DNA of 64,000 bases from an uncultured Chloroflexia bacterium (lineage in GTDB: Bacteria > Chloroflexota > Limnocylindria > Limnocylindrales > CSP1-4), in the NCBI GenBank assembly GCA_963703155.1, contig OY969796.1:3350151-3414150 (forward strand), written 5' to 3'. Shown here in pieces: positions 32,790-53,165 of the stretch (the stretch's first letter is position 1; every line of letters starts with the position of its first letter). The position numbers and the translations under genes were made by a program. Below the pieces are notes generated by a model that was not told the origin of the DNA, did not search any database, and worked only from the letters and a program-made list of their open reading frames with translations.

Positions 32790-32822
32790 CCAGCGATTCA
32801 TCGGACAACGGCCGACCCACGG

Positions 32823-35679: not shown

Positions 35680-36353
35680 GCGACGTCTCGCCCGCCTCGT
35701 CGGGCCAACCGGGCGACACCACGCCGCCCGCCAGCGACCGGGTCCGCCTCCGCCGCAAGCCGATGCGCGGCCGCCACGACCGCGAGACGATCGACGCGAT
35801 CATCGACGCCGCGGTCATCGGCGTGATCGCGTTCGTCCAGGACGGCCAGCCGTACGCGATCCCAACCAACGTCTGGCGCGAGGGCGACCGCGTCTACTGG
35901 CACGCCTCGGCTGGCAGTCGCCTGCTCCGGGTGGCGGACGGGACCGCGGTCTGTGTCACGCTCTACCACCTGGACGGGCTGGTGCTGGCCCGCTCCGCCA
36001 CCAACCACTCGGTCAACTTCCGCTCGGTGGTGATCCTCGGCACGGCGCACCTGGTCGTCGAGCCAGGCCCGGTGGAGCACGCGCTCGAAGGGCTGGTCGA
36101 GTCGCTGTATCCCGGCCGCTGGGCGCAGCTGCGCCCCATGACCGAGAAGGAGCGCAAGGAGACCGGCGTCATGTACGTGGACCTCGCCGAGGCCTCCGCG
36201 AAGGTCCGCGACGAAGGGCCCCACGACAACGCGGGCGACGAGACCTGGCCGGTGTGGGCCGGGCTGATCCCGGTGCAGACGGTCCGCGGCGAGGCCGAGC
36301 CCGACGAATTCGTGCAGCCGGGCACGCCGGAGCCGGTGGTCCGTCTCCCCTAG
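35676..36353 (+). CDS. Pyridoxamine 5'-phosphate oxidase-like FMN-binding split-barrel protein
   Basis: PYAIPT, VYWHASAGSRL, LDGLVLARSATNHSVNFRSVVILG and ASAKVR. Confidence 0.9.
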   Translation: MSDVSPASSGQPGDTTPPASDRVRLRRKPMRGRHDRETIDAIIDAAVIGVIAFVQDGQPYAIPTNVWREGDRVYWHASAGSRLLRVADGTAVCVTLYHLDGLVLARSATNHSVNFRSVVILGTAHLVVEPGPVEHALEGLVESLYPGRWAQLRPMTEKERKETGVMYVDLAEASAKVRDEGPHDNAGDETWPVWAGLIPVQTVRGEAEPDEFVQPGTPEPVVRLP

Positions 36354-36376
36354 CTTCGTTCGACGCCATGAGGGCC

Positions 36377-36545
36377 GCGCGAGTCGCGTGCGACTCGATC
36401 CGCGGCGCGTCGAGCGTGGGCGGCGCGCCCAACGTCGGTTTCGCGGAACGAGGCGCGCTCGCCGAACCGCGATTCGAGTCCGTGGCGACTCACGGGCGCC
36501 GAACGATGTGCCGACCGATGTGCCGACGACGTGCCGAACGATGTG
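36377..36545. repeat. Dispersed palindromic element (GAGTC-N6-GACTC x2), copy A, with a 4x 11-12-bp tandem tail
   Basis: Palindromes at 36381 and 36476, 95 bp apart. CCGAACGATGTG-like units at 36499-36545. Confidence 0.72.
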
Positions 36546-36548
36546 GCG

Positions 36549-37538
36549 CTAGGCCCCTTCGATCAGCTCCGGCCCCCGGTTGCGCGGCGCGACGATCGAG
36601 GTCTGCCCGGTGAGCCCAGCACCGTCGGCGGCGTCACGGAGCGCCTCCTCAACCGGACCGGCGTCGGCATCGGGCGCCACGAAGGCGAGCACCGTGGAGC
36701 CCGCGCCCGAGAGGAACGCGCCCAGCGCCCCGGCCGCCCGGGCGGCACCCGTGAGGCGCGGCAGCTGCGGGTAGGCCACCGAGCGGTACGGCTCGTGGAT
36801 GCGGTCAACTGTGAGGTCGGCCAGCAGGTCCCAGCGGCCGGACGCGATCCCCGCCACACCGATCGCGATGCGGCTCATGTTGGACACCGCGTCGCGGAGC
36901 GGCACCTCGGCCGGGAGGACGCGCCGCATGTCGGCGGTGGACAACCGTCGGTCGGGGATGAACAGCACCGCGCGGAGCCCCTCGGGCGCATCGAACCGCA
37001 CCGCTTCCACGCGCTGGCCCAGGTGGGCCGACACGACGAAGCCGCCCATGAGCGCGGCCGACGCGTTGTCCGGATGGCCCTCGATGTCCGTCGCGAGGCG
37101 CAGCATCGTCGGCATCGAGAGCGTTCCGCCGCCCAGCGCGTTGCCTGCCCAGATGCCACCGACAGCAGCCGCCGACGACGAGCCCAGCCCGCGCGACAGC
37201 GGGATCCGGTTGTGGGCGGTGATCCGCCAGCCGACATCGGGCGGCCGCGGCCCCAATTGCGCCTCGATGGCCGACTCGAGACCCATGACGAACCGGTTCG
37301 ACCGTTCCGGTCCGAGCTCATCGGCCCCCTCGCCGGTGGTCGTCAGCTCAATCGACCCGTCGGCCCCGACCGCCTCGACCTCGACCCGGTTGCACAGCTC
37401 CAGCGCCAGTCCAAGGCAGTCGTACCCGGCGCCCAGGTTGGCGGTGGAGGCGGGCACGTCGACCACCAGCCGGCGGCCGAGCACCGACGACCAGTCGCCG
37501 TGGGTCTGCCAGTGGCCTGCGACAGGGCTGGGGGCCAT
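36549..37538 (-). CDS. thrB: Homoserine kinase
   Basis: VPASTANLGAGYDCLG, GHMP motif PLSRGLGSSSAA, EGHPDNASAAL and LSGAGSTV. Confidence 0.95.
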   Translation of the reverse strand: MAPSPVAGHWQTHGDWSSVLGRRLVVDVPASTANLGAGYDCLGLALELCNRVEVEAVGADGSIELTTTGEGADELGPERSNRFVMGLESAIEAQLGPRPPDVGWRITAHNRIPLSRGLGSSSAAAVGGIWAGNALGGGTLSMPTMLRLATDIEGHPDNASAALMGGFVVSAHLGQRVEAVRFDAPEGLRAVLFIPDRRLSTADMRRVLPAEVPLRDAVSNMSRIAIGVAGIASGRWDLLADLTVDRIHEPYRSVAYPQLPRLTGAARAAGALGAFLSGAGSTVLAFVAPDADAGPVEEALRDAADGAGLTGQTSIVAPRNRGPELIEGA

Positions 37539-37543
37539 GTCGG

Positions 37544-38660
37544 TCAGTCCCCGATCGGGTAGCAGGCGCCCGACGGCGCAGCGACGCACTCACCGGCAAC
37601 AGGGCGCACCACGACATCGGCGCCACCCTCCGCGCGCACAGCCCCCGCCCATGTGGAGCCCAGCCCGCGGGCGATCGACACGAGGTCCGAGAGCACGGCG
37701 GCGGCGGCGGCGGCACCGCCTGCGCCTGGCCCCTCGAACGCCACCCGCCCGACCGGATCAGCGTCCACCTCGACCCGGTTGAGCACGCCGTCGCAGCGGC
37801 CGAAGGGCGATCCAGCGGGCACCGCGGTCGGGACCACGGACGCCTCGATCGCACCGTCCTGGGCGAGTCGGGTCGTGGCGATCAGGCGGAGCGTTCGGCC
37901 CTCCGCAGCGAGGGCGGCCACATCGGCGGCACTGACGCCCGTGATGCCCGGGGAGCCCGGCGTCCCGGTGACGGAGCCGGGGCGGTTCGACACGGCATCG
38001 GGCGAGATCCACGAGCCGAACGCGAGGCGGGCGAGGATGACGAGCTTGTTGACCGCGTCGAGCCCCTCCACGTCGGCGGTGGGATCGGCCTCGGCGTAGC
38101 CCTTCGCCTGGGCCTCGAGGAGCACGTCCGCGTAGTCGCGCCCGTCACGGGCCATCGCGGTGAGCATGTAGTTGGTCGTGCCGTTCACGATTCCGCGGAC
38201 GCGGGCGATACGGTCCCCGGCGAGGTCCCCGGCGATGGGCCCGAGGAGCGGGATGCCGCCGCCAACGGCCGCCTCGAACCGCAGGACCGCGCCCGTCTCG
38301 CGGGCGAGCGCCTCGAGCTCCGGCCCGTGGTGGGCGATGACGTGCTTGTTCGCCGTCGCCACGTGACGTCCGGCGGCGAACGCTGGCCCTGACGAGCGAG
38401 TGCGCGGGCTCGTCGCCGCCCATCGTCTCCACGATCACGTCCACGTCGTCGCGCGCGACCAGGGCGAAGGCGTCGTCGGACAGCAGTTCGGCGGGGATGC
38501 CGTTGGCGATGGCGCGCTCGGTGAACTTCTCGGCGATGCCGACCAGGACGAGCGGCCGGCCATCCGCGGGGGCAAGGCGGGGCGACCGCTCGAGGAACGC
38601 TCGGACGACCTCTCGGCCGACGGTGCCGGCGCCGATGACGCCGACGCGCAGGGGCTGCAT
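37544..38660 (-). pseudogene. hom: Homoserine dehydrogenase with an apparent 1-nt insertion at about 38384
   Basis: The N-part (LRVGVIGAGTVG...VIVETMGG) is in one frame. The C-part (HVATANK, FEAAVGGGIP, NGTTNYML, YAEADPTADVEGLDA) is in another. Removing one base restores RAAFAAGRHVATANK. Confidence 0.88.
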
Positions 38661-38834
38661 GCTCAACGGGGATCTCCGGACGGTTTGGGCGACGCCGGGA
38701 TGGTATCGAACGCGGGGCGCCATCGGCGACCGGCGGCCGGCGCCCGCTCGGCGCAGGGCTCGCATCGCGCTCCGTGTCTGTGCCTCTCCGCGTCGGAGGC
38801 GTGCGGGCGTCCGGCTCAGTCGCCCTTGCTTTCG

Positions 38835-40844
38835 CTAGGACCTCGATCCCCTGGCGCCGAGCCGACCGATCTCCTCGACGATGGCCGGGTTCTCGAGGGA
38901 CGAGAGATCGCCGGCGTCGAGCCCCAGCCAGGCCGATCGCGCAACGCGCCGCATGACCTTGCCAGAGCGGGTCTTGGGCAGCGCGGTCACGACCTCGACC
39001 CGCTCGGGGCGGAGCGTCTTGCCGAGGCTGAAGGTGACGCCGTCGGCGATCTCGCGGAGCAGGTCGGGGTCGGGCGTCACGCCGGGCCGCAGAACGCACA
39101 GGACAACGATGACCTCCCCCTTGACCGGGTCGGGCACGCCGATCGCTGCGGCCTCGATCACCGCGTGGTGGACCGACGCTGCCCCCTCCACCTCGGCCGG
39201 CCCGACCCGCTTGCCCGCCACCTTGAGCGTGTCGTCCGAGCGGCCGTGGATGTACCAGTAGCCGTCGGCGTCGATCTCAGCCCAGTCTCCGTGCAGCCAG
39301 ACGCCGGGCAGGCGCGCCCAGTAGCTGGCGAGGTACCGGTCGCGGTCGTGCCAGAAGCCGCGGGTCATGCCAGGCCACGGCGCCCGGATCGCCAGCTCGC
39401 CGTAGGCACGCCGAACCGGCGCGCCGTCCGGGGCCACCACATCGGCGGCCATGCCGATGCTCGGCCCGCTGAACGAGGCGGGCTTGATGGGCGTGAGCAG
39501 GTTGCAGGCGACGATCCCGCCGCTGACCTCGGTCCCGCCGCTGTAGTTGATCACCGGGCAGCGACCGCCGCCGACCTCGCGGAAGTACCACCACCACGGC
39601 TCGTCGTTCCACGGCTCGCCGGTGGAGCCCAGCACGCGCAGCGAACCGAGGTCGTGGCCTCGGACCGGCTCGGTGCCGTGGGCCATGAGCGCCCGCACAA
39701 GCGTTGGGGAGATGCCGAGGTGGCTCACGCGATGACGCTCAACGATGGCCCACATCCGGTCGGGGCCGGGATGGTCGGGCGCGCCCTCGTAGATCACCAG
39801 CCGGGCCCCGAGGAGCAGCGCCCCGGAGATGGCCCACGGTCCCATCATCCAGCCCAAGTCGGTGTACCAGAACAGGGTGTCGCCGGGCCCGAGGTCGAAA
39901 TTGTGGGCGAGGTCCTGGGCGCCCTTGACCGGGAAGCCTCCGTGGACGTGGACCGCCGCCTTCGGCCGCCCCGTGGTGCCCGAGGTGTAGATGAGCATGT
40001 AGGGCGCCTCGGGGTCGGTCTGGGCGCGGGGTGCGGGAATTGTCTCCGCGGGGACATCCGGGAGCGCCTCGTCCCACCAGCGGTCCCGCTCGGAATCCCA
40101 CGAGACCTCGCCTGCACGATCGCCGAGCCGCCGGACGACGATGACGCGCCGCACGCTCGGGGCGTCGGCCAGCGCCGCATCGGCGACCTCCTTGAGGCGG
40201 ACCGGCCTGCCGCGGCGGAGGAAGCCGTCGGCGGTGATCAGGACGCTCGCCTCGCAGTCGGAAAGGCGGCTCGCGATCGCCGGCGCGCCATACCCCGAGA
40301 AGATCGGCGTGAAGATCGCCCGGAGCCGGCCGAGCGCGAGGACCGCGACGACGGTCTCGACCAGCATCGGCAGCAGGATGCCGACCCGATCTCCCGCGCC
40401 GACGCCCTGGCGCGCGAGCATCGTCGCGGCCGCGTCCACCGCGCGCAACAACTCTGCGTTGGTCAGCTGCCGAACATCGCCGTCCTCGCCCTCCCAGATG
40501 AGCGCGATCCCGTCGGGATCGGCCGTCGCGCGGGGCTCGAGCGCCGCGGTCGCGTAGTTGAACGACCCGCCGCCCCACCACCGGGCGAACTCGGGCCCAT
40601 CGCTCGTGTCGAGCACCGACGTCGGACGCCGATCCCAGGCAAGGCCGAGGTCGCTGGCAGCGGCGCCCCAGAACCACGCCGGGTCGGCCACGGCGTGCCG
40701 CTGCAGGGCGTTAAGCGAGGGCTCCCTGACCTCGCGCAGGAACCGGGCCAGCCGGCTCGTCGCCAGCTGCTCAGCGCTCGGGCGCCAGGCGGCGCCGGGG
40801 ACGTCGCGGCCGAACATCGGCTCCTCGTCGGGCGGCCGGGCCAT
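38835..40844 (-). CDS. Acetate/short-chain acyl-CoA ligase (AMP-binding, Acs-like)
   Basis: YTSGTTGRPK, GSTGEP, YSGGTE, HGDWA, GRSDDTLKVAGKR and LPKTRSGKVMRR. Confidence 0.92.
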   Translation of the reverse strand: MARPPDEEPMFGRDVPGAAWRPSAEQLATSRLARFLREVREPSLNALQRHAVADPAWFWGAAASDLGLAWDRRPTSVLDTSDGPEFARWWGGGSFNYATAALEPRATADPDGIALIWEGEDGDVRQLTNAELLRAVDAAATMLARQGVGAGDRVGILLPMLVETVVAVLALGRLRAIFTPIFSGYGAPAIASRLSDCEASVLITADGFLRRGRPVRLKEVADAALADAPSVRRVIVVRRLGDRAGEVSWDSERDRWWDEALPDVPAETIPAPRAQTDPEAPYMLIYTSGTTGRPKAAVHVHGGFPVKGAQDLAHNFDLGPGDTLFWYTDLGWMMGPWAISGALLLGARLVIYEGAPDHPGPDRMWAIVERHRVSHLGISPTLVRALMAHGTEPVRGHDLGSLRVLGSTGEPWNDEPWWWYFREVGGGRCPVINYSGGTEVSGGIVACNLLTPIKPASFSGPSIGMAADVVAPDGAPVRRAYGELAIRAPWPGMTRGFWHDRDRYLASYWARLPGVWLHGDWAEIDADGYWYIHGRSDDTLKVAGKRVGPAEVEGAASVHHAVIEAAAIGVPDPVKGEVIVVLCVLRPGVTPDPDLLREIADGVTFSLGKTLRPERVEVVTALPKTRSGKVMRRVARSAWLGLDAGDLSSLENPAIVEEIGRLGARGSRS

Positions 40845-41216
40845 CAGCCGACGCCTCCCGCCCGGGAGCGCCGGCCGTGCAGGGCCGCGCTGGGCCCGCC
40901 GACTCGACCTCGACCCCCGCGCGGCCCCCCGGCGACGCGAGCCGGCTCGCCGGGTGAGCCCAATCGCCGCGTCCTCGGCCTGGCTTGCCGGCTGGCGAGC
41001 GGCAGGCGCGGCGCGGCGTGCGGGCTGCTCTCCAAGCGATCCGGCTGCTCGCCAGCGCGTGCGTTTCGCCCGCGACGCGAGCGGCGGTCCTGCGCGAGGC
41101 CTTCGGCTCGGCTCCGGTCATGCTCAACCTGCGCTCGCATGGGCTCCATTGTCGTCAGAGTGCGGGAGCCGTCCACCGCCTGCCGATTTCGCCTGCCCCG
41201 AGCGCACAATGGCCCC

Positions 41217-41663
41217 ATGGACCCCTTCGACCTCGAGCGCTTCGTCGGTGCCCAGCGGGGCGGCTACGACGGCATCCTCCGCGAGCTGCGCGCCGCGCGC
41301 AAGACCGGCCACTGGATGTGGTTCGTGTTCCCGCAGGTCGTCGGCCTGGGCATGACGTGGATGTCACGGCACTACGCGATCCGATCGCTCGACGAAGCGC
41401 GGGCCTACCTCGCGCACCCGGTCCTGGGTCCGCGGCTTCGCGAGTGCGCGGACGCCGTCCTGGCGGCTCCCCGCGTCGCCACGGCCGAGTCGATCCTGGG
41501 GGGCATCGACGCGATGAAGCTCCGCTCCTCGATGACGCTGTTCGTTCGCGCCGCCCCCGACGAGCCGCGCTGGCAGCACGTCCTCGACCGCTTCTACGAC
41601 GGCGTCCCTGATCGGCTCACCGACGAGATTCTGGGCGGCGGCGGGATGTTGTCTCACCGGTGA
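41217..41663 (+). CDS. DUF1810-family protein
   Basis: MDPFDLERFVGAQ, GHWMWFVFPQ, YLAHPVLGPRL and DAMKLRSSMTLF. Confidence 0.9.
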   Translation: MDPFDLERFVGAQRGGYDGILRELRAARKTGHWMWFVFPQVVGLGMTWMSRHYAIRSLDEARAYLAHPVLGPRLRECADAVLAAPRVATAESILGGIDAMKLRSSMTLFVRAAPDEPRWQHVLDRFYDGVPDRLTDEILGGGGMLSHR

Positions 41664-41805
41664 TCCACGTGCCGTTCGACGATGCGGCAGCGCGTCTTCG
41701 CCCTGGTGGCTGGCGGTCGGCGGCGGTGTGGCAGGAAGGGAGCGTGAACCGGCCGGAGCACCGCCGCCGGCAGATCGCCGCGGCCCTCCGTTACACTCCG
41801 GGCCA

Positions 41806-42825
41806 ATGACCACCGAGCTTCTCCCCTCCCCGGCCCCCGTCCAGGCGCCCATGCCGCGCCCGCGGATCTTCTCGGGCATCCAGCCGTCCGGCATCGTCCA
41901 TCTCGGGAACGACCTGGGCGCGATCCGCAACTACGTGATGCTCCAGTGGGAGTACGAGGCGATCTACTGCATCGTCGACTACCACGCCCTCACGAGCACC
42001 CACGACCCGGTGGCCATGCGCCAGCGGACCCGCGAGATGGCCGCCAGCCTGCTGGCGCTGGGCCTGGACCCGGACCGCTGCACGCTGTTCGTCCAGAGCC
42101 ATCGCCCGGAGCACACCGAGCTGATGTGGCTGTTCGCCACCGTGACGCCGGTGAGCTGGCTCGAGCGGACGCCGACCTACAAGGAGAAGAAGCAGAACCA
42201 GCCGGACGACATCAACCACGGGCTGCTCACCTACCCGGTCCTCCAGGCCGCCGACATCGCGATCTACAAGGCCGGGCTCGTCCCGGTGGGCAAGGACCAG
42301 GCGGCGCACCTGGAGCTCTCGCGGGAGATCGTCCGCGCCTTCAACAACCGGTACGGGGAGACGTTCCCGGAGGCCGAGGCGGTCTACACCGAGGCGCCCG
42401 TCGTGCTGGGCACCGACGGTGTCCGGAAGATGAGCAAGTCCGTCGGGAACACCATCGAGATCCTTGGCTCGCCGGAGGAGATCCGCAAGCAGGTGATGTC
42501 GATGGTGACCGACACGAAGCGGATCCTGCGGACCGATCCCGGGCGCCCCGAGGTCTGCAACGTGTGCCAGATGCACCAATTCTTCGGCGATGACTGGGAG
42601 GAGATCCAGGACGGCGAGCGCACCGCGCGGACTGGCTGCGTGGACACCAAGAAGCTGCTCGCCGCGCGGATCATCGAGCACTACGCGCCCGCCCGGGAGC
42701 GCTATGCCGAGCTGATGGCGCATCCCGCCGAGATCGACGGGATCCTAGAAGCAGGCGCCGACCGCCTCGAGCCGCTCGCCCGGGCGACGATGGACGAGGT
42801 CCGCACCAAGATGGGCCTCCGCTAG
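41806..42825 (+). CDS. trpS: Tryptophan--tRNA ligase
   Basis: FSGIQPSGIVHLGN (HIGH-like), YPVLQAADI, VPVGKDQ and KMSKS. Confidence 0.96.
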   Translation: MTTELLPSPAPVQAPMPRPRIFSGIQPSGIVHLGNDLGAIRNYVMLQWEYEAIYCIVDYHALTSTHDPVAMRQRTREMAASLLALGLDPDRCTLFVQSHRPEHTELMWLFATVTPVSWLERTPTYKEKKQNQPDDINHGLLTYPVLQAADIAIYKAGLVPVGKDQAAHLELSREIVRAFNNRYGETFPEAEAVYTEAPVVLGTDGVRKMSKSVGNTIEILGSPEEIRKQVMSMVTDTKRILRTDPGRPEVCNVCQMHQFFGDDWEEIQDGERTARTGCVDTKKLLAARIIEHYAPARERYAELMAHPAEIDGILEAGADRLEPLARATMDEVRTKMGLR

Positions 42826-42886
42826 GAGCGACAGGCGGCCCCGCGGGCGGTCGAGGCGCGGCCGGCGAGCCCGCACGACCGCGACG

Positions 42887-43603
42887 TCAGCGGCCGGATC
42901 CCTTCAGGGTGCCCGTCAGCGGCCCGAGGTTGGGATCGGCCAGTGAGCACTGGACCCCGCGGTCGCCGCTGCTCCAGCTCGCCTCGCTCGGGAAGAAGTA
43001 GTAGTACGTGAGCGTCGTCTGGGCGGCGGTGGTGCCCACGTAGGTCTCGAACGCGGGCGTGCAGTTCTGGTCCGTCCAGTCGCTGAGCTGCGCCTCGGTC
43101 GGGTAGGTGTCGGCTGTGATGTCGCCCCGGTAGAAGACCTCGTAGTGGTGCGACTGCGCGCAGGGAACGGCGGTGGTCTTCTCGATGGTGGCGTTGGGGT
43201 CAGGGCTGAGCATGTCGTTCGGGAGGTCGAAGCAGTCGCCCACGAGGAGGTCGGCGGGCGCCATGTCGCCGGCCTTGTCGATCTGCCCGCTCGAGTTGCG
43301 GCCTGCATTGGAGACGAAGGCCACGACGGCGCCGATGACGACGATGACCACCAGGACCGCGAGCCGCGCCCCGATGTTCCCGATGATGCCCGCAGCGAGG
43401 GACCGCTTCGCGCTCACCCCCTGGCCCGGCACGGGCGCCCCAGGATAGCCGCCGGGAGCCGGCCCGCCCGCCACAGGAGGAGGCGGGGTCAAGACGTTGG
43501 CCTGGGTGACGACGCCACCCCGGATCATGCCGCAGGAGCGACACGAGACCGCGCCCTCGTCGTTCTGGGCGGAACACCGGCCGCAGGTCCAGCCGCTCGC
43601 CAT
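42887..43603 (-). CDS. Zn-ribbon + TM + septum-formation-family domain protein
   Basis: N-terminal WTCGRC...CRSC ribbon and one TM helix. The Cys-rich extracellular domain reads GDCFD...VPCAQSHHYEV...WSSGDRGVQC. Confidence 0.75.
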   Translation of the reverse strand: MASGWTCGRCSAQNDEGAVSCRSCGMIRGGVVTQANVLTPPPPVAGGPAPGGYPGAPVPGQGVSAKRSLAAGIIGNIGARLAVLVVIVVIGAVVAFVSNAGRNSSGQIDKAGDMAPADLLVGDCFDLPNDMLSPDPNATIEKTTAVPCAQSHHYEVFYRGDITADTYPTEAQLSDWTDQNCTPAFETYVGTTAAQTTLTYYYFFPSEASWSSGDRGVQCSLADPNLGPLTGTLKGSGR

Positions 43604-43835
43604 CGGGGTTCGCCTCCCTTGCCACGGGCGCGGCCCCACTCGACCCGCGCTGCGGCCAAGAATCGCCCTCGGGGAGCCGGTGTGCAAGGCCGAAGCGAGG
43701 GGCTCGTCCGGGGGGAGGGTGCGCGTGTCGAGGGCCGCCAACATGGTGCCAACCGTCAGTGCCGATGCGGCGCCGGGCAAGACGCCCAGCCGAAGCGATG
43801 AGCGCGGCGTGAGGCAGCCGTCGTAGGCTGTGGCC

Positions 43836-45143
43836 ATGCCAGTTGAGCTCTCCGAGCGGCAGCGCCGCCTCCTCGACGCAGCCCTTGTCCTTGCCGTCGT
43901 CGCGCTGGCCTTCGTGGTGGTCGCCGACGTCGCCAGCGTGCTGACGCTGTTCAGCGACGTCCTGCTCGTCTTCTTCCTCGCCTGGCTGCTCTCGTTCGCG
44001 ATCCTGCCGCTCATCAACCTGGTCAAGCGGCTGGTGCCCGGCCTGCCGGACATCGTGGCGGTGCTCCTGGTGTACCTGGTCGTCGTCGGGCTGCTGCTCG
44101 GCCTCCTGATCCAGGTCTCCAGCGTCCTGGCGTCGTCGATCGGCGCCCTGCCCAAGGACCAGCCCCTCTACGACCAGTTCGTGAAGCTGCTGACCGACGT
44201 GCAGGCGCGCCTCGTCGGAGTGGGCTTCCGGGTGGACCTCGTTGGCCAGGCGCCGGCGATCTGGGACACCATCAACCAATGGGCGGTCCAGCTCGTCGGG
44301 CCGCTCCAGCAGGTGGCCGTGGCCAGCATCGGCGTGCTGGGCAACGTGCTGATCATCACGATCCTCTCGGTGTACCTGGTCATCGACCGCGAGGAGGCCC
44401 TTGCCTTCGTCTACCGGCTGGTCCCGCCCGGAAGGACGCAGACCGCTCGCCTCGTCCAGACCAGCGTCGCCCGCTCCTTCGGCGGGTTCCTGCGCACGCA
44501 GCTGGTGATGGGCCTCGTGTTCGGCGTCCTGGCCGCGGTCGTCAACGCGGTGTTCGGCCTGCCCTACAGCAGCGTGACCTCGGTGGCGGCCGGCGTGCTG
44601 CACGCCATCCCGTTCTTCGGGCCCTTCCTCTCCTGGCTGCCGCCGGTGGCCGTGGCCCTGCTGTCGACGCAGTTCCCGACGCCGGTGATCGTCTTGGCGG
44701 TGATGGGCGTCGGCTGGTTCGCGACGATGAACATCCTCCAGCCGCGGCTCATGGCCGGGGCGGTCGGGATCCACCCGATCGTGGTCCTGGGTTCGGTGGT
44801 GGTCGGGTCGAAGCTGGCCGGCATTCCCGGGGCCATCTTCGGCATCCCCATCGCGGCGGTGCTCTCGGCGTTCTTCTTCCACTGGTTCGAGCGGTCGCGC
44901 GAGGGCGGCTCGGTGGCGGACCGCGCGACGAGGCGGCTCCAGGCGCGCGAGGGGCATCCGGTGCGACGGCCGCAGGAGCCGGTCCCGGGGCTGGACGAAG
45001 ACGTGGACGAAGTGCGCCGACGCCGCCAGGGGCAGGACACGGAGCCCATCGCGGCGGAGGACGATCCGGTGATCGCGGCCGCGGCTGGCATCGTTGCCAC
45101 CGTCACGCCGCCCGAGTCGGTAAGCGATCGGGGCTCCCGGTGA
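43836..45143 (+). CDS. AI-2E (PerM/YhhT) family transporter
   Basis: Multi-TM protein with IPFFGPFL, NILQPRLMAGAVGIHP and GIPGAIFGIPIAA. Confidence 0.92.
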   Translation: MPVELSERQRRLLDAALVLAVVALAFVVVADVASVLTLFSDVLLVFFLAWLLSFAILPLINLVKRLVPGLPDIVAVLLVYLVVVGLLLGLLIQVSSVLASSIGALPKDQPLYDQFVKLLTDVQARLVGVGFRVDLVGQAPAIWDTINQWAVQLVGPLQQVAVASIGVLGNVLIITILSVYLVIDREEALAFVYRLVPPGRTQTARLVQTSVARSFGGFLRTQLVMGLVFGVLAAVVNAVFGLPYSSVTSVAAGVLHAIPFFGPFLSWLPPVAVALLSTQFPTPVIVLAVMGVGWFATMNILQPRLMAGAVGIHPIVVLGSVVVGSKLAGIPGAIFGIPIAAVLSAFFFHWFERSREGGSVADRATRRLQAREGHPVRRPQEPVPGLDEDVDEVRRRRQGQDTEPIAAEDDPVIAAAAGIVATVTPPESVSDRGSR

Positions 45144-45168
45144 CGCTCGGCCCGACGCACCCCTGGCG

Positions 45169-46191
45169 ATGAGCGCCAACGACCCCGGCCGGCCGGAGAT
45201 GGCACGGGAGCGCGCCCGGACCGAGCGCCGCGACCTCGACAAGGAGCGCGGCGAGCCGCTGGCCGGCGCTCGGGGCGGCAAGCGCTCGCTCAAGCGGATG
45301 GGCAAGCCGCTCGACGCGTGGACGACCCGTCCGCGGATCCTCGTGACCAACGATGACGGGATCGAGTCGCACGGGATCCTCGCCCTCAAGCGGGCGCTCG
45401 AGCCGCTGGGCGACGTGATCGTCGTGGCGCCCGACTCCAACCAGTCGGCTGTGGGGCACCAGAAGACGCTGTCGCGCCCCCTCCGTGTCCGGGAGCGCAC
45501 GCTCCCCGACGGGTCCACCGGCTACGCGATCGACGGCTCGCCCACCGACGCGGTCAGCCTGGGCCTGCTGGGCTTCTTCGACGAGAAGTTCGACCTGGTC
45601 GCGTCGGGCATCAACTACGGCGCGAACCTCGGCGACGACCTCACCTACTCGGGCACGGTGTCGGCCGCGATGGAGGCGATCATCAACTCCACGCCCGCCT
45701 TCGCCATCTCGCAGGAGTACTCCGAGGAGGTGGACTTCACCCTCGCGGGCATCGCGGCGGCGATCGTGGGGCGCAACATCCTCGAGCACGGCCTGCGGCG
45801 CGGCGAGCTGCTCAACGTCAACGTGCCCGCGGTCAGCGTGGAGGAGTGCGGCGGCATCGAGGTGACGCGGCTCGGCCGGCGCGTGTACCAGGACCAGCTC
45901 ATCGCGCGGGTCGACCCGCGCGGGCTCCCCTACTACTGGATCGGCGGGCCGCCGCCGTCGGGGATCGCGCTGCCGGGGACCGACTTCGACGCCATCGTCA
46001 ACCGGCGCGTCTCGGTCACGCCGGTGCACCTGGACTTGACGGGGCGGCGCCTGCTGCGGGAGCTGCCGAAGTGGGACTGGGCGCTCGAGGCGTCGCCGAA
46101 GCAGCCGACGCCGGAGGACGCCGAGGCGCTTCGCCCCGCGCCGGCCGAGCGCGAGCGGTTCGCCGAGGAGACGAAGCTCGAGCGGCGGTAG
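45169..46191 (+). CDS. surE: 5'/3'-nucleotidase SurE with an N-terminal extension
   Basis: ILVTNDDG, VAPDSNQSAVG, GSPTDAV and SGINYGANLG...YSGTVSAA. Confidence 0.94.
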   Translation: MSANDPGRPEMARERARTERRDLDKERGEPLAGARGGKRSLKRMGKPLDAWTTRPRILVTNDDGIESHGILALKRALEPLGDVIVVAPDSNQSAVGHQKTLSRPLRVRERTLPDGSTGYAIDGSPTDAVSLGLLGFFDEKFDLVASGINYGANLGDDLTYSGTVSAAMEAIINSTPAFAISQEYSEEVDFTLAGIAAAIVGRNILEHGLRRGELLNVNVPAVSVEECGGIEVTRLGRRVYQDQLIARVDPRGLPYYWIGGPPPSGIALPGTDFDAIVNRRVSVTPVHLDLTGRRLLRELPKWDWALEASPKQPTPEDAEALRPAPAERERFAEETKLERR

Positions 46192-46216
46192 CGACCGTCA
46201 CTTCAGGCGCCATTCC

Positions 46217-46442
46217 GATGGTGGTCTGGCGCCACCAAAGTGACCAACATCGGTCCCGGGTGGCCTTCGATGGTGGTCCAGCGCCACCGAAGTGACCCGG
46301 GTGGCCGGCGATGGTGGCTCACTCCCACCAACTCGTGCGGAATGGTGGTCCGCGCCCACCATCGCGTGCGGATGGTGGCGCCCTGCCACCGAAATCGCCG
46401 TGTGATCCGTCGAGCCGGGCAATTTGGTGGTGCCAGACCACC
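46217..46442. repeat. Array of six GGTGG-N7-CCACC palindromes
   Basis: Sites start at 46220, 46272, 46313, 46344, 46374 and 46426, between the convergent surE and flavoprotein genes. Confidence 0.85.
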
Positions 46443-46494
46443 GCGAGTCGACGACCCTCAACGGCCCTCGCAAGGCGAGCAGGCCAACCTCGAG

Positions 46495-48183
46495 CTAGCG
46501 GCGCCGCTTCCTCCGGTCCGCGATGACCTCGCGCGCCGCGTTCCGGCCCGGGGCGCCCGTGACGCCGCCGCCGGGATGCGCGCCCGACCCAGCGAGGTAC
46601 AGCCCGCTCACCGGCATGCGGTAACGGGACCAGCCCAAGAGCGGCCGCCACAGCCAGAATGCGTCGAGCGCCGGCTCCACGTGCATCGGGTGGCCGCCGG
46701 TGAGCCCGAACTCGCGCTCGAGGTCGGCCGGCGTGAGCACCTGGCGGGCCGTGACGCGGGAGGAGATCCCGGGCGCCACGCTCTCGAGTGAGCGCAGGAC
46801 GGCGTCGCCCACGGCCTCGCGCTGTGTGTCCCACTCGGCGGCGGTCGGCGCAGACGGCATCCACTGGGCGATCACGCTCATCACGTGCGTGCCCTCGGGC
46901 GCACCCGCCACGAGCGACGGGTCCACCAGGGACGGGATCGTCGCCTCCAGGACCGGCTGCTCGGCGAACCGCCCGTACTTCGACGCGTCGAAGACGCGCT
47001 CCATCGCGTCGATCGAGGTCGTCCCCACCTGGATCCGGCCGCGCAGGAGTCGCGCGTCGCCCGCGGCCGCGGGGAACTCCGGCAAGCCCTCCAGCACGAG
47101 GTTGACCTTCGCCGACACGGCCGGGGTGCGGATGTTCCCCGCCCGCCAGCGCATGTTCGGCCCCACGGTGACCGGATCGACCAGCGAGGTCAGCAGGCGC
47201 TTGGGGTTGATGCCCGCCACCACCGTCGGCGCGGCGATCTCCTCGCCGGACTCCAGCACGACGCCCGTGACGACGCCGTCCGCGGTGGCCACCGACGCGA
47301 CGCGCGCGCCGGTCCGGATCTCCGCGCCGGCGAGCTTGGCAGCTGACGCGAGCGCCTCGGAGACGGCCGAGGGGCCGCCCTTGGCGAACACGGTCTCGCC
47401 GATGCCGCCGCTGTCCGTGCCGGCCGCGTCCGCGAGCAGGACCGACGTCGAGCCGGCCGACCACGGCCCCATCGCGGTGTGGCGGACGCCACGCCAGGCC
47501 GTGGTGGCGCGGATCGCCTCCGTCTCGAACGACTCGGCGACGAAGTCCGCGATGGCCATCGCGAGGACCCGCAGGATCGTGCGCCCGTCGTCGCGGCCCA
47601 TGCCGCGGAAGGCGCGCGCGAGGCGCAGGCCCATGAGCGCGTCGCCAGCGCCCGGGCCCTGGATGTCGGGCGGGGTCTCCTCGCCGATGTCCACGAGGAA
47701 CTTCGAGAGGGCGCGCACCCGCCGGTCGAACTCGACGAACGCGGTGGCGTCGTCGTCGGACCACGCGCGCAGCGACTCGACGCTCTTGCCCAGGTCGGCC
47801 CACAGCGTCACGGCACGGCCGTCGGGCTGGGGGGCGAAGACGCGGACCTCGGGCGAGACGAGCGCCATCCCGAAGCCGCCCAGGTCGAGGTCGCGGGCGA
47901 CTGCCGGGCGCAGCCGGCCAACGGTGTGGGCGAGCGTCGGCACGCGCACGCCGGGCGCGATCTCCTCGGTCACGGCCGCACCGCCGACGCGGTCGCGCGC
48001 CTCGAGCACCAGGACTCGCTGCCCTGCCCGCGCGAGGTACGCCGCGGCGGTCAGCCCGTTGTGGCCGGCGCCGACGACGATGACGTCATAGGCGACGCCA
48101 GTCGAAACCGGGGCCGTCGCGGTCGACGGGTCCGCCTTGGCCGGAGCCGGCGCGGGCGTGGTCGAAGTCGCAGTCGTGGTCAT
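46495..48183 (-). CDS. Phytoene-dehydrogenase-like FAD oxidoreductase (second of a pair)
   Basis: VVGAGHNGL, LEARDRVGGAAVTEE, PSLVDPSL and YLAGSGAHPGGGVTG. Confidence 0.88.
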   Translation of the reverse strand: MTTTATSTTPAPAPAKADPSTATAPVSTGVAYDVIVVGAGHNGLTAAAYLARAGQRVLVLEARDRVGGAAVTEEIAPGVRVPTLAHTVGRLRPAVARDLDLGGFGMALVSPEVRVFAPQPDGRAVTLWADLGKSVESLRAWSDDDATAFVEFDRRVRALSKFLVDIGEETPPDIQGPGAGDALMGLRLARAFRGMGRDDGRTILRVLAMAIADFVAESFETEAIRATTAWRGVRHTAMGPWSAGSTSVLLADAAGTDSGGIGETVFAKGGPSAVSEALASAAKLAGAEIRTGARVASVATADGVVTGVVLESGEEIAAPTVVAGINPKRLLTSLVDPVTVGPNMRWRAGNIRTPAVSAKVNLVLEGLPEFPAAAGDARLLRGRIQVGTTSIDAMERVFDASKYGRFAEQPVLEATIPSLVDPSLVAGAPEGTHVMSVIAQWMPSAPTAAEWDTQREAVGDAVLRSLESVAPGISSRVTARQVLTPADLEREFGLTGGHPMHVEPALDAFWLWRPLLGWSRYRMPVSGLYLAGSGAHPGGGVTGAPGRNAAREVIADRRKRRR

Positions 48184-48184
48184 G

Positions 48185-49807
48185 TCAGGCCACCTTCCGG
48201 CCGCGGGACTTGAGGACCTCGAGCGCGGCCAGCCGCCCGTTGGCGCCCATGAGGCCGCCGCCGGGGTGCGTGGACGAGCCCGACAGGTACAGGTTCTGCA
48301 CGGGCGTCTTGAACCGCGCGTAGCCGGGCACCGGCCGGTTGAAGAACAGCTGCTCGAGCGAGAGCTCGCCCTGGAAGATGTTCCCCTCGGTCAGGCCCAT
48401 CGTCCGCTCGATGTCGAGCGGGGTCAGGACCTGACGGCCGATGATGATCTCGCGGATGTTGGGCGCGAACTCCGCGATCCGGTCGATGACCGCGTCGCCG
48501 AAGGCCTCGCGCTGGTCGTCCCAGGTGCCGAGCTCGGGCGCCAGCTTGTACGGCGCGTACTGGACGAAGCACGAGATGACGTGCTTTCCCGGAGGCGCCA
48601 TCTGCGGGTCCACCAGCGTGGGGATGATCATGTCGATGTACGGCTTGCGGCTGAACCGCCCGTACTTCGCATCGTCGTAGGCCTGCTCCATCTCGATCGT
48701 GTTCGGGCTGAACGAGATGGCGCCGCGGAGGTGCTCGCCCTCGCCGGGGAGGCACGTGAAGTCGGGCAGGCGGTCCACGGCCAGGTTGACCTTGCCCGAG
48801 CTGCCGCGGAACTTGAAGCGGCGGACCTCCTGCTCGAACAGCGGGTCGAGCGAGCCGGGCTCGAGCAGGTCGAGGAACGTGACCTTCGCGTCAGCTGAGG
48901 AGAGGACGACGCTCGCCTCGATCTCCTCGCCGCTCTCGAGCGCGACGCCCGTCGCCCGGCCGTTCTTGACGACGATCCTCGCGACCGGCGCCTCGGTCCG
49001 GATCTCGGCGCCCAGCGCTTGCGCCGCACGGGCGATCGAGTACGACACCCCGCCGGTGCCGCCCTTGGGGATGCCCCACGCGCGGAAGGCGCCGTCGATC
49101 TCGCCCATGTAGTGGTGGAGCAGCACGTAGGCCGTGCCCGGCGAGCGGATGCCCTGGTAGGTGCCGATGATCCCCGACGCCGACATCGTCGCCTTGAGCG
49201 GCTCGGTCTCGAACCACTGGTCGAGGAAGTCCTTGGCGGACATCGTCATCAGCTGGACGAAGACGGCCTGCTGGCGCTCGGGGAGCTGGGCGAAGCGGCG
49301 GGCGAGGCTCGCGATCGGGAGCAGCGGGCGCGGGTCGTTGTCGGTGGGGTCGCCCGGGACGATGCCGAGGATCGGCTTGATGAACCGGGCCATCTCCACC
49401 ATGAGCTGGCCGTACTCCTCGTACGCCTCGGCGTCGTTCTTCGACCAGCGGCGCAGCTCACGGACCGTCCGGCCGTGGTCGTTGACCCGCCACAGGTAGT
49501 CGCCGCCGTCGGGCGTCCTGTCCACGCCCTTCCGCAGCGGGGTGAACGTGCCGTCAAGCGGCAGGATGTCGAGGCCGTAGCGGGGCAGGTTGAGGTCGCG
49601 GATGATCTCCGGGCGCAGCAGGCTCACGACGTAGCTCGCGACCGAGAAGCGGAAGCCGGGGATGATCTCCTCGGTGACGGCCGCGCCGCCGAGCACGTGC
49701 CGGCGCTCGAGGACGAGCGTCTTCAGGCCCGCCCTGGCCAGGTAGGCCGCGGACACGAGCCCGTTGTGCCCGCCGCCGATGATCACCGCGTCGTAGCGCT
49801 GGGGCAC
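48185..49807 (-). CDS. Phytoene-dehydrogenase-like FAD oxidoreductase (first of a pair)
   Basis: IIGGGHNGL, LERRHVLGGAAVTEE, AYVLLHHYMG, PTLVDPQMAPPGKH and YLSGSSTHPGGG. Confidence 0.9.
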   Translation of the reverse strand: MPQRYDAVIIGGGHNGLVSAAYLARAGLKTLVLERRHVLGGAAVTEEIIPGFRFSVASYVVSLLRPEIIRDLNLPRYGLDILPLDGTFTPLRKGVDRTPDGGDYLWRVNDHGRTVRELRRWSKNDAEAYEEYGQLMVEMARFIKPILGIVPGDPTDNDPRPLLPIASLARRFAQLPERQQAVFVQLMTMSAKDFLDQWFETEPLKATMSASGIIGTYQGIRSPGTAYVLLHHYMGEIDGAFRAWGIPKGGTGGVSYSIARAAQALGAEIRTEAPVARIVVKNGRATGVALESGEEIEASVVLSSADAKVTFLDLLEPGSLDPLFEQEVRRFKFRGSSGKVNLAVDRLPDFTCLPGEGEHLRGAISFSPNTIEMEQAYDDAKYGRFSRKPYIDMIIPTLVDPQMAPPGKHVISCFVQYAPYKLAPELGTWDDQREAFGDAVIDRIAEFAPNIREIIIGRQVLTPLDIERTMGLTEGNIFQGELSLEQLFFNRPVPGYARFKTPVQNLYLSGSSTHPGGGLMGANGRLAALEVLKSRGRKVA

Positions 49808-49934
49808 CCCACCCTCCGTTCGGGACGCGCGGCCTCGCGACCGCTATTCAGCCTGCATGGGATTGATGCAGTCTAGCCGACCAAGGCCCGGGCGTCGGGG
49901 CGAGGTTCACGGAACGGGCCGGCCGCGACCCTGG

Positions 49935-50130
49935 GCGCGAGTCGGCTGCGACTCAATCCGAAGGGTGTCGTGCGCGACCCGCCACCCCGAATGACGTTGC
50001 GGGCCCCGAGCCGTGCAGGACGGTGGCCCGAACGAGTCTGCCGCGACTCACGACCCCGAACGAGTCTGCCGCGACTCAGGGACCTGGCTCTGCCGCGATC
50101 CGGTGGCGGCCACGGAGTCGCGACGAGCTC
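49935..50130. repeat. Dispersed palindromic element (GAGTC-N6-GACTC), copy B, with an exact 24-bp duplication
   Basis: Palindromes at 49939, 50034 and 50062. CCCGAACGAGTCTGCCGCGACTCA occurs at 50027-50050 and 50055-50078. Degenerate copies at 49965, 50086 and 50115. Confidence 0.78.
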
Positions 50131-50159
50131 CCGTCCGGCGCCAATCTGCAGATCGCGCG

Positions 50160-53111: not shown

Positions 53112-53165
53112 GCCGCCCATCGTGGCAGACCGGGCGCATCGTCCGCGACCCGTGCCACCGTGCGG

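What the first reader, a model, noticed from the sequence alone, without database searches (positions are those of the whole stretch)
36377..50130. A GAGTC-N6-GACTC element present in two copies 13.5 kb apart with identical internal geometry
Seen: locus A (36377-36545) and locus B (49935-50130) each carry two GAGTC-N6-GACTC palindromes exactly 95 bp apart (36381/36476 and 49939/50034). The first sites align at 23/26 nt and the second at 17/20 nt. Both continue as GACTCACG...CCGAACGA, while the sequence between the palindromes has diverged. Inference: conserved palindromes and spacing with a drifting spacer point to a dispersed non-autonomous element (REP/BIME/MITE-like) or a structural protein-binding or RNA element of a family I do not recognise.
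Basis: partly seen in the sequence, partly recalled or inferred. Interest (0 to 1): 0.62.

Follow-up and report, generated by a model that had tools for sequence, protein, structure and literature searches.

The report
Dispersed palindrome doublets with cognate nuclease
The two spots are copies of a 111-base repeat scattered through this soil Chloroflexota genome and its relatives; the repeat appears to be the docking site of an undescribed family of DNA-binding nuclease genes, a 'repeat plus enzyme' pairing like known selfish-repeat systems, and this genome has lost the enzyme.

Summary
GAGTC-N6-GACTC occurs 5 times in the window (0.24 expected) and 48 times in the 4.15-Mb genome, against 0-3 for any other spacing. 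Nineteen pairs lie 92-96 bp apart.

Each pair bounds a 111-bp, dyad-symmetric intergenic element. It has conserved inner motifs (GAGCGyG ... CrCGCTC), a rigid length and an otherwise very diverged interior.

The tests excluded several readings:
- It is not an Rfam RNA, and its interior folds no better than shuffled sequence.
- It has no target-site duplication.
- No Y1/RAYT gene is present.

In relatives (Limnocylindrales MAGs), a roughly 270-aa XRE-HTH + PD-(D/E)xK nuclease gene sits directly between or beside such doublets. In two genomes, all or half of the exact sites flank that gene.

Homologues of the gene carry other cognate palindromes: GACTC-N6, GAGTC-N7, GATCC, GATCA, GGCAC and GAGCA. 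Their doublet spacings are 85, 95 or 106 bp, or 8, 9 and 10 helical turns.

The likely meaning is that in-phase double-stranded sites are bound by HTH dimers. The layout resembles REPIN/RAYT but uses a different enzyme class.

This genome has lost both clade-I genes that its sister genomes keep, so its copies are orphans. Locus A is nevertheless better conserved than its flanks. Cleavage and mobilisation are inferred, not shown.

The parts
36381..36491 (.). Locus A: a complete 111-bp palindrome doublet, between the stops of two convergent genes (a pyridoxamine-oxidase-like gene at 35520-36353 + and a gene at 36549-37589 -)
   Evidence: nhmmer scores it 72.7 bits. It is orthologous to a doublet in G432 at 88% identity with no indel.
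36381..36396 (.). Locus A left palindrome, GAGTC-GCGTGC-GACTC
36412..36418 (.). Locus A inner motif GAGCGTG (element positions 32-38)
   Evidence: G34, C35 and G38 are 89-96% conserved without having been selected for.
36454..36460 (.). Locus A mirrored inner motif CGCGCTC (element positions 74-80)
36476..36491 (.). Locus A right palindrome, GAGTC-CGTGGC-GACTC
49939..50049 (.). Locus B: a complete 111-bp doublet, between the stop of the 986-aa aminotransferase-fusion gene (50160-53120 -) and the start of the FAD-oxidoreductase gene (48185-49807 -). Its inner motifs are partly decayed (GTGCGCG / CGTGCAG).
   Evidence: nhmmer scores it 59.7 bits.
49939..49954 (.). Locus B left palindrome, GAGTC-GGCTGC-GACTC
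50034..50049 (.). Locus B right palindrome, GAGTC-TGCCGC-GACTC
50062..50077 (.). A third palindrome at locus B, an exact 28-bp tandem duplicate of the right palindrome and its 5' flank (CCCGAACGAGTCTGCCGCGACTCA)

Best explanation
Loci A and B are two of about 25-44 copies in this genome of a 111-bp dyad-symmetric 'palindrome doublet'. The layout is yGAGTC-N6-GACTCr, 15 bp, GAGCGyG, about 35 bp, CrCGCTC, 15 bp, yGAGTC-N6-GACTCr.

The doublet family is the cognate DNA site of one clade of a Limnocylindrales-specific gene family. These genes encode an N-terminal XRE-type helix-turn-helix fused to a PD-(D/E)xK (restriction-endonuclease-fold) domain. In genomes that keep the gene, it sits between or beside such doublets, in a unit of about 1.3 kb (doublet, gene, doublet). 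Solo doublets are scattered in intergenic DNA.

Proposed working (inferred):
- An HTH dimer reads each 16-bp palindrome on double-stranded DNA.
- The two palindromes lie 9 helical turns apart on the same face, so two dimers can synapse over the bent 79-bp interior. The inner motifs, which are conserved across families, may mark the contact or cut site of the nuclease domains.
- This nucleoprotein complex is what spreads, duplicates or maintains the doublets. That would make it an analogue of REPIN/RAYT that uses a different enzyme and dsDNA sites.

This genome (G000) has lost both clade-I genes that its sister genomes retain, so its copies are orphans. They are still conserved, either because the loss is recent or because they have a second, host-level use.
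For: SHOWN: the family and its anatomy
- There are 48 sites against 0-3 at other spacings, and 19 pairs at 92-96 bp.
- Of 127 copies from many MAGs, 81 are exactly 111 bp although interior identity is only about 41%.
- The inner motifs are 86-98% conserved without having been selected for.

SHOWN: linkage to the gene
- The most enriched neighbour family of 130 copies is the HTH gene.
- GAGTC doublets or sites lie within 300 bp of the gene in G432, G431, G014, G005, G019 and G077.
- G019 has 4 exact sites in 4.6 Mb, and 2 of them lie 80 bp from the gene. G077 has 8 sites in 3.8 Mb, and 4 of them flank the gene.

SHOWN: the rule holds across homologues
- Of 80 clade-I loci, 22 carry at least 3 copies of one A/T-containing 5-N5-7-5 palindrome. 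Only 2.9% of 800 random windows do.
- Half-site and doublet spacing change together with the homologue: GAGTC-N6 95 bp, GACTC-N6 94-95, GAGTC-N7 85, GATCC 106, GATCA-N7 106-107, GGCAC 95, GAGCA 94-95.
- The recognition helix differs between specificities: S/C in 5 of 5 GAGTC-N6 loci against W in 5 of 5 GACTC-N6 loci.
- Doublets of the different families share the inner motifs.

SHOWN: the protein
- E113, D126, E141 and K143 are invariant in 44 homologues.
- The AF2 model (pLDDT 89) has an HTH plus an alpha-beta-beta-beta-alpha-beta core.
- Foldseek finds HipB and C-proteins for the HTH, and the R2 restriction-like endonuclease domain for the rest.

SHOWN: sequence readout rather than hairpin readout
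- None of 7 double mismatches in decayed palindromes is compensated.
- The interior folds no better than shuffles (z = -0.33).

SHOWN: turnover and constraint
- Locus A is absent from 12 more distant genus members.
- Many G431 doublets are absent at syntenic G000 sites.
- Locus A is 88% identical to its G432 orthologue with no indel and all motifs kept, while its flanks are about 50-60% identical.
- Copy number is highest where the closest gene pair is present: 129 and 71 sites in G431 and G432, against 48 in G000.

SHOWN: gene loss in G000
- The best tblastn hit to the GAGTC-type protein is 30% identical.
- The G431 gene locus is occupied by an aminotransferase gene in G000.
- A second clade-I gene survives only as a 3' relic.
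Against: - No binding, cleavage or mobilisation has been observed.
- No clean empty site or element boundary could be defined, because intergenic DNA is unalignable even between sister genomes.
- Gene and element do not always occur together. G000 (48 sites) and G193 (27 sites) lack a close gene. G401, G162 and G409 have 47-54% homologues but 0-1 GAGTC sites, and at least G162's homologue has GGCAC sites instead.
- G283 and G294 have 55% homologues with no GAGTC site within 1.5 kb.
- Only about a quarter of clade-I loci show an obvious perfect-5-mer family.
- The helix-residue correlation is confounded by phylogeny. A W-type gene in G431 has yet other palindromes nearby.
- There is a weak but significant copy-specific complementarity between the two arms: 65.5% of cells paired against 60.8% in shuffles, with 0 of 500 shuffles as high. 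This leaves room for a single-strand foldback step.
- Conservation of orphan copies in G000 fits a host function at least as well as a selfish one.
Confidence: 0.6

Rival explanations
1. The doublets are operator or architectural sites of a pure DNA-binding regulator. The HTH protein would be an autoregulator or nucleoid-associated factor whose nuclease-like domain only oligomerises it. The dispersed doublets would be a regulon or chromosome-organising sites kept by host-level selection, not mobile DNA.
For: - The closest solved relatives of the HTH are autoregulators with multi-operator arrays: HipB, C-proteins and SinR.
- The sites sit beside the gene's own promoter region.
- In-phase spacing is typical of looped operators.
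- The orphan locus A is better conserved than its flanks in a genome without the gene.
- An arc of about 1 Mb around the likely origin has no sites.
Against: - The catalytic tetrad E/D/E-x-K is invariant in 44 homologues.
- 39% of copies lie between convergent gene ends and only 16% in divergent (promoter) spacers.
- Apart from the HTH gene itself, no neighbour gene family is enriched.
- Distribution is very patchy, at 13 of 401 family genomes. Syntenic sites differ between sister genomes.
- Tandem amplification of near-identical copies occurs.
Confidence: 0.2
2. It is a single-strand foldback element or structured RNA. The doublet would act as a long hairpin in ssDNA (REPIN-like, moved by an HUH enzyme) or in a transcript (a small RNA, terminator or stabiliser).
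For: - Whole elements fold with z = -3.2 against shuffles.
- The spacers of the two palindromes tend to be reverse complements.
- Arm-to-arm complementarity exceeds shuffles.
- Copies are enriched at convergent gene ends.
Against: - The folding signal comes only from the terminal palindromes. The interior has z = -0.33.
- An all-against-all column scan gives one pair above noise.
- There is no Rfam match.
- No Y1/HUH gene is found in 8 genomes, while the controls are positive.
- Half-sites are conserved in sequence and not compensated.
- Each end is itself a palindrome with a free spacer, which a hairpin model does not require.
Confidence: 0.08
3. It is an ordinary MITE, a deletion derivative of a DDE-transposase insertion sequence, and the palindromes are simply its terminal inverted repeats.
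For: It is short and intergenic, it has inverted ends, it shows presence/absence polymorphism, and copy number differs between genomes.
Against: - No target-site duplication is seen at any offset or length in 120 copies.
- No transposase lies between palindrome pairs; the genes they flank are housekeeping genes.
- The only linked gene is the HTH-nuclease gene.
- Interiors are diverged to 41% identity while the ends and the length are kept, which is not neutral decay of young copies.
Confidence: 0.05

Closest known systems
REPIN/RAYT systems (REP doublets and their REP-associated tyrosine transposase; Bertels & Rainey, PMC3337134; Ton-Hoang et al., PMC3479197, PMC8266576)
   Same: - Short palindromes occur as inverted doublets of about 100 bp.
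- They are dispersed in intergenic DNA in tens to hundreds of copies.
- A small cognate gene is itself flanked by the repeats.
- Several gene/repeat families with different repeat sequences exist in one lineage.
- There is no target duplication.
- Orphan repeat populations remain where the gene is lost.
   Different: - The enzyme is an XRE-HTH + PD-(D/E)xK nuclease, not an HUH/Y1 transposase. PF01797 is absent.
- The palindromes are 5-N6-5 sites with free spacers, and they are conserved in sequence rather than as stems.
- There is no GTAG/CGTC tag.
- The interior is not a hairpin.
- Doublet spacing is quantised in helical turns, which points to duplex rather than single-strand recognition.
BIME-1 / RIP (RIB) elements of E. 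coli (two inverted REPs flanking an IHF site)
   Same: An element of about 100 bp is made of two inverted palindromic units with a conserved central part that may bind a second factor.
   Different: The sequences and the lineage are unrelated. No IHF consensus was tested. A linked nuclease gene is present here.
XRE-family autoregulators with operator arrays (HipB, restriction-modification controller C-proteins, SinR, 434 repressor)
   Same: They are the best sequence and fold matches for residues 10-75. Like the new family, they are dimers that read short palindromes next to their own gene.
   Different: Those proteins have 70-110 residues and no nuclease domain, and their operators are not dispersed through the genome.
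Two-site (type IIE/IIF) restriction endonucleases such as SfiI, and the restriction-like endonuclease domain of R2 retrotransposons
   Same: They share the PD-(D/E)xK core with the E..D..ExK motif, read interrupted palindromes, and need or use two sites held in a loop.
   Different: DNA recognition here is by a separate HTH domain. No partner methyltransferase is seen. The recognition sites are enriched in the host genome rather than avoided.
Foldback MITEs (Correia/NEMIS, ERIC/IRU)
   Same: They are of similar size, imperfectly dyad-symmetric, intergenic, and vary in copy number between strains.
   Different: Here there is no TSD, no hairpin-stabilised interior and no DDE parent element.

Membership tests
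REP / REPIN-RAYT | A RAYT (Y1 HUH transposase, PF01797) is encoded in the genome and flanked by the repeats | tested here: not met
   There is no PF01797 match in G000, G431, G432, G193, G283, G294, G006 or G010. The same search is positive in 6 control genomes.
REP / REPIN-RAYT | The repeats occur as inverted doublets (REPINs) in intergenic DNA | tested here: met
   There are 19 doublets in G000 and 127 in other genomes. All are intergenic.
REP / REPIN-RAYT | The REP unit is a stem-loop with a conserved GTAG or CGTC tag, and its stem is kept by compensatory change | tested here: not met
   The consensus is yGAGTC-N6-GACTCr, with no such tag. None of 7 double mismatches is compensated.
MITE of a DDE insertion sequence | A target-site duplication flanks the inverted ends | tested here: not met
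   No direct repeat of 2-8 bp at any of 64 offset combinations exceeds shuffled flanks in 120 copies.
MITE of a DDE insertion sequence | A full-length parent element has the same ends and a DDE transposase | tested here: not met
   Genes lying between close element pairs are an aldehyde dehydrogenase, a tRNA synthetase, a PGA_cap protein and TA-system genes. The only recurrent gene is the HTH-nuclease gene.
Known structured RNA (Rfam 15) | A match to a covariance model, or covariation supporting a fold | tested here: not met
   There are 0 hits at E <= 1 over window 36000-51000. The interior has z = -0.33. Only weak mirrored covariation is seen.
PD-(D/E)xK nuclease superfamily (the linked protein) | An alpha-beta-beta-beta-alpha-beta core carrying acidic residues and a lysine in the D...(D/E)xK arrangement | tested here: met
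   E113, D126, E141 and K143 are invariant in 44 sequences. In the model they fall on strands E109-116, E123-131 and E136-143. R2 RLE domains are among the fold hits. Catalysis itself is not testable here.
XRE-family HTH DNA-binding proteins (the linked protein) | An HTH_3 / HTH_31 domain | tested here: met
   PF01381 matches at 2.8e-09 and PF13560 at 3.1e-07. PDB profile hits include HipB, C.BclI and 434 repressor.
Homing endonuclease gene | The gene interrupts its own recognition site, so that intact sites exist only in gene-less alleles | tested here: not met
   Complete, intact doublets lie on both sides of the gene.
Restriction-modification system | A partner methyltransferase is present and the recognition site is avoided in the host genome | tested here: inconclusive
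   The site is enriched about 24-fold over other spacings rather than avoided. No methyltransferase was seen in the 1.3-kb units, but neighbours were not searched systematically.

The most novel reading that the evidence does not exclude
The XRE-HTH/PD-(D/E)xK genes and their in-phase palindrome doublets form a previously unrecognised class of bacterial replicator. It would be a duplex-DNA counterpart of REPIN/RAYT, in which a tetrameric, two-site nuclease synapses two 16-bp palindromes 8, 9 or 10 helical turns apart and copies, moves or maintains them. The gene family would then also be a natural series of modular nucleases, whose 5-N6/7-5 specificity has diversified through a few helix-3 residues.
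Probability: 0.4. Interest if true: 0.85.

Novelty: new variant of a known kind. Interest (0 to 1): 0.72.

Why it matters
Dispersed palindromic repeats with a dedicated enzyme are known essentially from one system (REP/REPIN with the HUH enzyme RAYT) and from MITEs with DDE transposases.

Here the same genomic logic appears with a different protein architecture and a different kind of site:
- the gene is flanked by its own repeat doublets;
- solo doublets are spread through intergenic DNA;
- several gene/repeat families with distinct repeat sequences coexist;
- orphan repeats remain after gene loss.

The protein is an HTH fused to a restriction-endonuclease fold. The sites are duplex palindromes with helically phased spacing.

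If the nuclease is active, it would be a new route by which short repeats populate bacterial genomes. It would also give a set of natural, co-varying protein/site pairs in which sequence recognition by an HTH-tethered nuclease can be read directly from genomes.

For this genome alone, the result explains about 25-44 conserved intergenic blocks that annotation leaves blank.

Tried and rejected
- **Rfam scan of 36000-51000 at E <= 1:** nothing found.
- **Structured RNA or foldback:** an all-against-all column covariation scan gave only one pair above noise. The interior folding z-score is -0.33. A formal pair count gave only a weak copy-specific signal.
- **Target-site duplications:** none at any offset.
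- **RAYT/Y1 search:** none found.
- **A regulon:** no neighbour gene family was enriched except the HTH gene.
- **A transposase between close element pairs:** only housekeeping and TA-system genes lie there.
- **A cognate gene in G000:** the six paralogues are at most 30% identical, belong to clade II, and have no 5-Nx-5 palindrome cluster nearby. The one clade-I trace is a 3' relic of a gene with a different specificity.
- **Clean empty sites between G000 and G431:** intergenic DNA cannot be aligned beyond the stop codons, so no boundaries or footprints were obtained.
- **TIR or direct-repeat relation between the doublets flanking a gene:** inconsistent. One pair is inverted at 82%, one is direct at 90%, and the rest are at background level.
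- **GC skew to place the origin:** too weak to use.
- **Literature searches for an HTH/restriction-fold enzyme tied to dispersed palindromes:** nothing relevant found.
- **NCBIfam, PADLOC and PDB sequence searches:** they recognise only the HTH.

Full report
**Observation**

The window holds five exact GAGTC-N6-GACTC sites, at 36381, 36476, 49939, 50034 and 50062. Only 0.24 are expected, and none of 100 shuffles reaches five. The first two pairs are each exactly 95 bp apart.

The window lies in a single 4.15-Mb contig of 71.9% G+C. Genome-wide the palindrome occurs 48 times with an N6 spacer, against 0-3 times for every other spacer from N0 to N20. In a census of all 5-Nx-5 palindromes it is the clearest family not explained by codon periodicity. 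Nineteen pairs are spaced 92-96 bp, mostly 95. A profile built from them finds 44 loci.

**Anatomy**

Each pair bounds a 111-bp element that is itself dyad-symmetric. The layout is yGAGTC-N6-GACTCr, then a short A/T-containing stretch, then GAGCGyG at positions 32-38. A centre with GAAyC...GrTTC follows, then the mirror CrCGCTC at positions 74-80, and then the second palindrome.

The consensus spacers of the two palindromes (GCGTCA and TGACGC) are reverse complements of each other.

In 127 copies from many genomes, 81 are exactly 111 bp long. Yet the interiors of 83 non-redundant copies are only 41% identical on average, where about 30% is expected for random sequence of this composition.

G34, C35 and G38 and their mirror positions were not used to find the copies, and they are 86-98% conserved.

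All copies are intergenic. Of 113 copies with both neighbours called, 44 lie between convergent genes, 51 between tandem genes and 18 between divergent genes.

**What it is not**

- Rfam has no match.
- The 79-nt interior folds no better than dinucleotide shuffles (mean z = -0.33). The whole element's z of -3.2 comes from the terminal palindromes.
- An all-against-all scan for complementary columns gives one pair above noise.
- A formal count on 45 copies shows 57% of interior mirror cells paired, against 28-40% when partners are slid. Overall 65.5% of cells pair, against 60.8% in shuffles. This is a weak, copy-specific dyad signal, not a set of covarying helices.
- Decayed palindromes show no compensation: 0 of 7 double mismatches are compensated.
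- Flanks carry no target-site duplication at any offset.
- No Y1/RAYT gene exists in this or five other element-bearing genomes, while the control genomes are positive.

**Distribution**

The organism is a Chloroflexota of the Limnocylindrales. The strict doublet pattern occurs in 13 of 401 genomes of its family, in 4 of 49 genera. The reversed control pattern occurs in none.

Single-site counts are 129 (SKS1.bin7, G431), 71 (BP4.bin83, G432), 48 (this genome), then 27, 22, 17 and 15, down to 0-1.

G431 and G432 turned out to be close relatives of this genome, at 83-95% nucleotide identity in syntenic DNA.

- **Locus A** is missing from the same convergent spacer in 12 more distant members of the genus. 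It is present at the orthologous place in G432. There the element is 88% identical with no indel, and all twenty half-site bases and both inner motifs are intact, while the flanking spacer DNA is only about 50-60% identical. In G431 the same spacer has grown to 639 bp, with a partial copy, a solo palindrome and a full doublet.
- **Locus B's** position in G431 holds an 870-bp methyltransferase-like insert and only a decayed trace of the element.
- Of 24 G431 doublets with syntenic flanks in this genome, about six are shared and the rest are absent here.
- Two shared pairs keep the half-sites and the total length of 111 bp, despite 25-31% divergence and several indels that cancel out.

The element therefore turns over between sister genomes. 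Where it persists, its motifs and spacing are under constraint.

**The linked gene**

Clustering the genes next to 130 copies gave one recurrent family. It is a protein of about 270 aa with an XRE-type HTH (PF01381) and an unannotated C-terminal part.

- In BP4.bin83 the gene has two doublets upstream and two palindromes downstream, all with the consensus spacer.
- In SKS1.bin7 an 80% orthologue has two doublets upstream and a palindrome downstream.
- In G014, G005 and G019, homologues of 50-55% identity have GAGTC sites within 300 bp.
- In G077, from another genus, a 40% homologue with one in-frame stop lies exactly between the only two strict doublets of that genome.
- G019 has four exact sites in 4.6 Mb, and two of them lie 80 bp from the gene.

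A scan of 185,579 species genomes with a clade profile returned 80 further loci, essentially all from Limnocylindrales-type MAGs. Twenty-two of them carry at least three copies of one A/T-containing 5-N5-7-5 palindrome, against 2.9% of 800 random windows of this genome.

The usual layout is doublet, 100-250 bp, gene, 30-170 bp, doublet. Half-site and doublet spacing change with the homologue:

| Cognate palindrome | Doublet spacing (bp) |
|---|---|
| GAGTC-N6 | 95 |
| GACTC-N6 | 94-95 |
| GAGTC-N7 | 85 |
| GATCC-N6/7 | 106 |
| GATCA-N7 | 106-107 |
| GGCAC-N6 | 95 |
| GATGC-N7 | 96-97 |
| GAGCA-N6 | 94-95 |

The values 85, 95 and 106 correspond to 8, 9 and 10 turns of B-DNA. The two palindromes therefore always face the same side of the helix.

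Doublets of all these families share the inner AGCGyG/CrCGCT motifs. So they are homologous elements whose outer sites have changed together with the protein.

In helix 3 of the HTH, the residue before a conserved arginine is S or C in 5 of 5 GAGTC-N6 loci. It is W in 5 of 5 GACTC-N6 loci. This agrees with co-evolution, but it is confounded by ancestry.

**The protein**

Forty-four homologues keep E113, G-W-I-D126 and E141-x-K143 invariant. The AlphaFold model (pLDDT 89) has a five-helix HTH, a long linker helix and an alpha-beta-beta-beta-alpha-beta core. The invariant residues sit on the first three strands of that core.

Foldseek returns HipB, C-proteins and SinR for the N-terminal part, and the restriction-like endonuclease domain of R2 elements for the rest. 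Pfam, NCBIfam, PADLOC and PDB sequence searches see only the HTH. Public annotations read 'helix-turn-helix transcriptional regulator'. The family is multi-copy, with 2-9 members per genome.

**State in this genome**

The six paralogues here belong to a second clade, are at most 30% identical to the GAGTC-type protein, and have no palindrome cluster nearby.

The place where SKS1.bin7 carries the GAGTC-type gene and its doublets is occupied here by an aminotransferase gene.

A second clade-I gene, intact in SKS1.bin7 with other palindromes, survives here only as its last 56-59 codons, at genome position 1305851-1306035.

Both clade-I genes of the sister genome are therefore gone, and the 48 GAGTC sites are orphans.

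**Mechanism**

Shown: the physical linkage, the co-variation of site and homologue, the phased spacing, the intact nuclease motif, and the sequence-level (not stem-level) conservation.

Inferred:
- HTH dimers read each palindrome on duplex DNA.
- Two dimers synapse across the bent interior.
- The nuclease domains act on or near the conserved inner motifs or the spacer.
- This complex underlies the duplication or spread of doublets.

Tandem near-identical copies show that local amplification happens. Long-range movement is inferred only from presence/absence.

The main rival is that the protein is a regulator or architectural factor and the doublets are host-selected sites. The conservation of orphan locus A favours this rival. 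The invariant catalytic residues, the bias toward gene ends, the absence of a coherent regulon and the patchy distribution all count against it.

**Comparison and novelty**

The genomic logic matches REPIN/RAYT, but two defining features fail the test: the HUH enzyme and the tagged hairpin REP. DDE-type MITE membership also fails, since there is no duplication and no parent IS.

Two literature searches found no description of an HTH/restriction-fold enzyme tied to dispersed palindrome doublets.

I rate this as a new variant of a known kind of system. Its biochemical basis is untested.

**Caveats**

- All genomes but this one are MAGs.
- The gene calls used for context are heuristic.
- Copies were found with an exact pattern, so the conservation of the ten half-site bases within the collected set is partly by construction. 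The orthologue comparisons and the inner motifs are free of that bias.
- Co-occurrence of gene and element is imperfect.

Noticed in passing
window 32900-33590 (- strand): This is a clade-II member of the same HTH/PD-(D/E)xK family. Its HTH part and its nuclease part read in different frames, so it has either an apparent frameshift or a sequencing error. It has its own, different repeats upstream (CAGATGTTC... units at 32677-32790) and no GAGTC site nearby.
   Followed up: partly
window 46220-46442: Six GGTGG-N7-CCACC palindromes sit in one 220-bp spacer. They form another 5-N7-5 family, of the kind that flanks clade-I genes in relatives, but no such gene is adjacent here.
   Followed up: no
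window 36492-36545: Directly 3' of locus A lies a short tandem array of CGA(A)CGATGTGCCGA-like units. It is partly shared with the G432 orthologue. CCGAACGA also precedes the right palindromes of locus B.
   Followed up: no
genome C1:1305851-1306035 (outside the window): A 3' relic (56-59 codons) of a clade-I HTH-nuclease gene lies in the spacer after a carbamate-kinase-like gene. The orthologous site in SKS1.bin7 holds the intact gene plus GACAC-N6-GTGTC and AACTC-N6-GAGTT palindromes, so G000 has suffered a deletion of about 1.1 kb here.
   Followed up: yes
genome C1:1981009-1982562 (outside the window): Between conserved flanks, this genome has an aminotransferase gene where SKS1.bin7 has two GAGTC doublets plus the GAGTC-type HTH-nuclease gene. 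This is a segment replacement at one site.
   Followed up: partly
genome C1, arc 3.45 Mb through 0 to 0.378 Mb: No exact GAGTC-N6-GACTC site, and only weak profile hits, lie in this 1.08-Mb arc. Gene-strand bias suggests the arc is centred on the replication origin. GC skew is too weak to confirm this. This is a post-hoc observation and is unexplained.
   Followed up: partly
L240:2095-3599 and L183:3434-3666 (other MAGs): Some clade-I genes are followed not by doublets but by regular arrays: GCGTC-N5-GACGC every 51 bp (7 units) and CCGGG-N8-CCCGG every 29 bp.
   Followed up: no
protein hits P0004-P0120: Many family members sit on contigs of only 1.0-1.5 kb, about the size of the doublet-gene-doublet unit. 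This would be expected if the flanking repeats break short-read assemblies. Most contigs of that collection are short anyway, so this is only a hint.
   Followed up: no
L255:2324-3198 (SKS1.bin7, orthologue of the locus B spacer): An 870-bp insert encoding a SAM-methyltransferase-like ORF, possibly frameshifted, lies where this genome has the locus B doublet.
   Followed up: no
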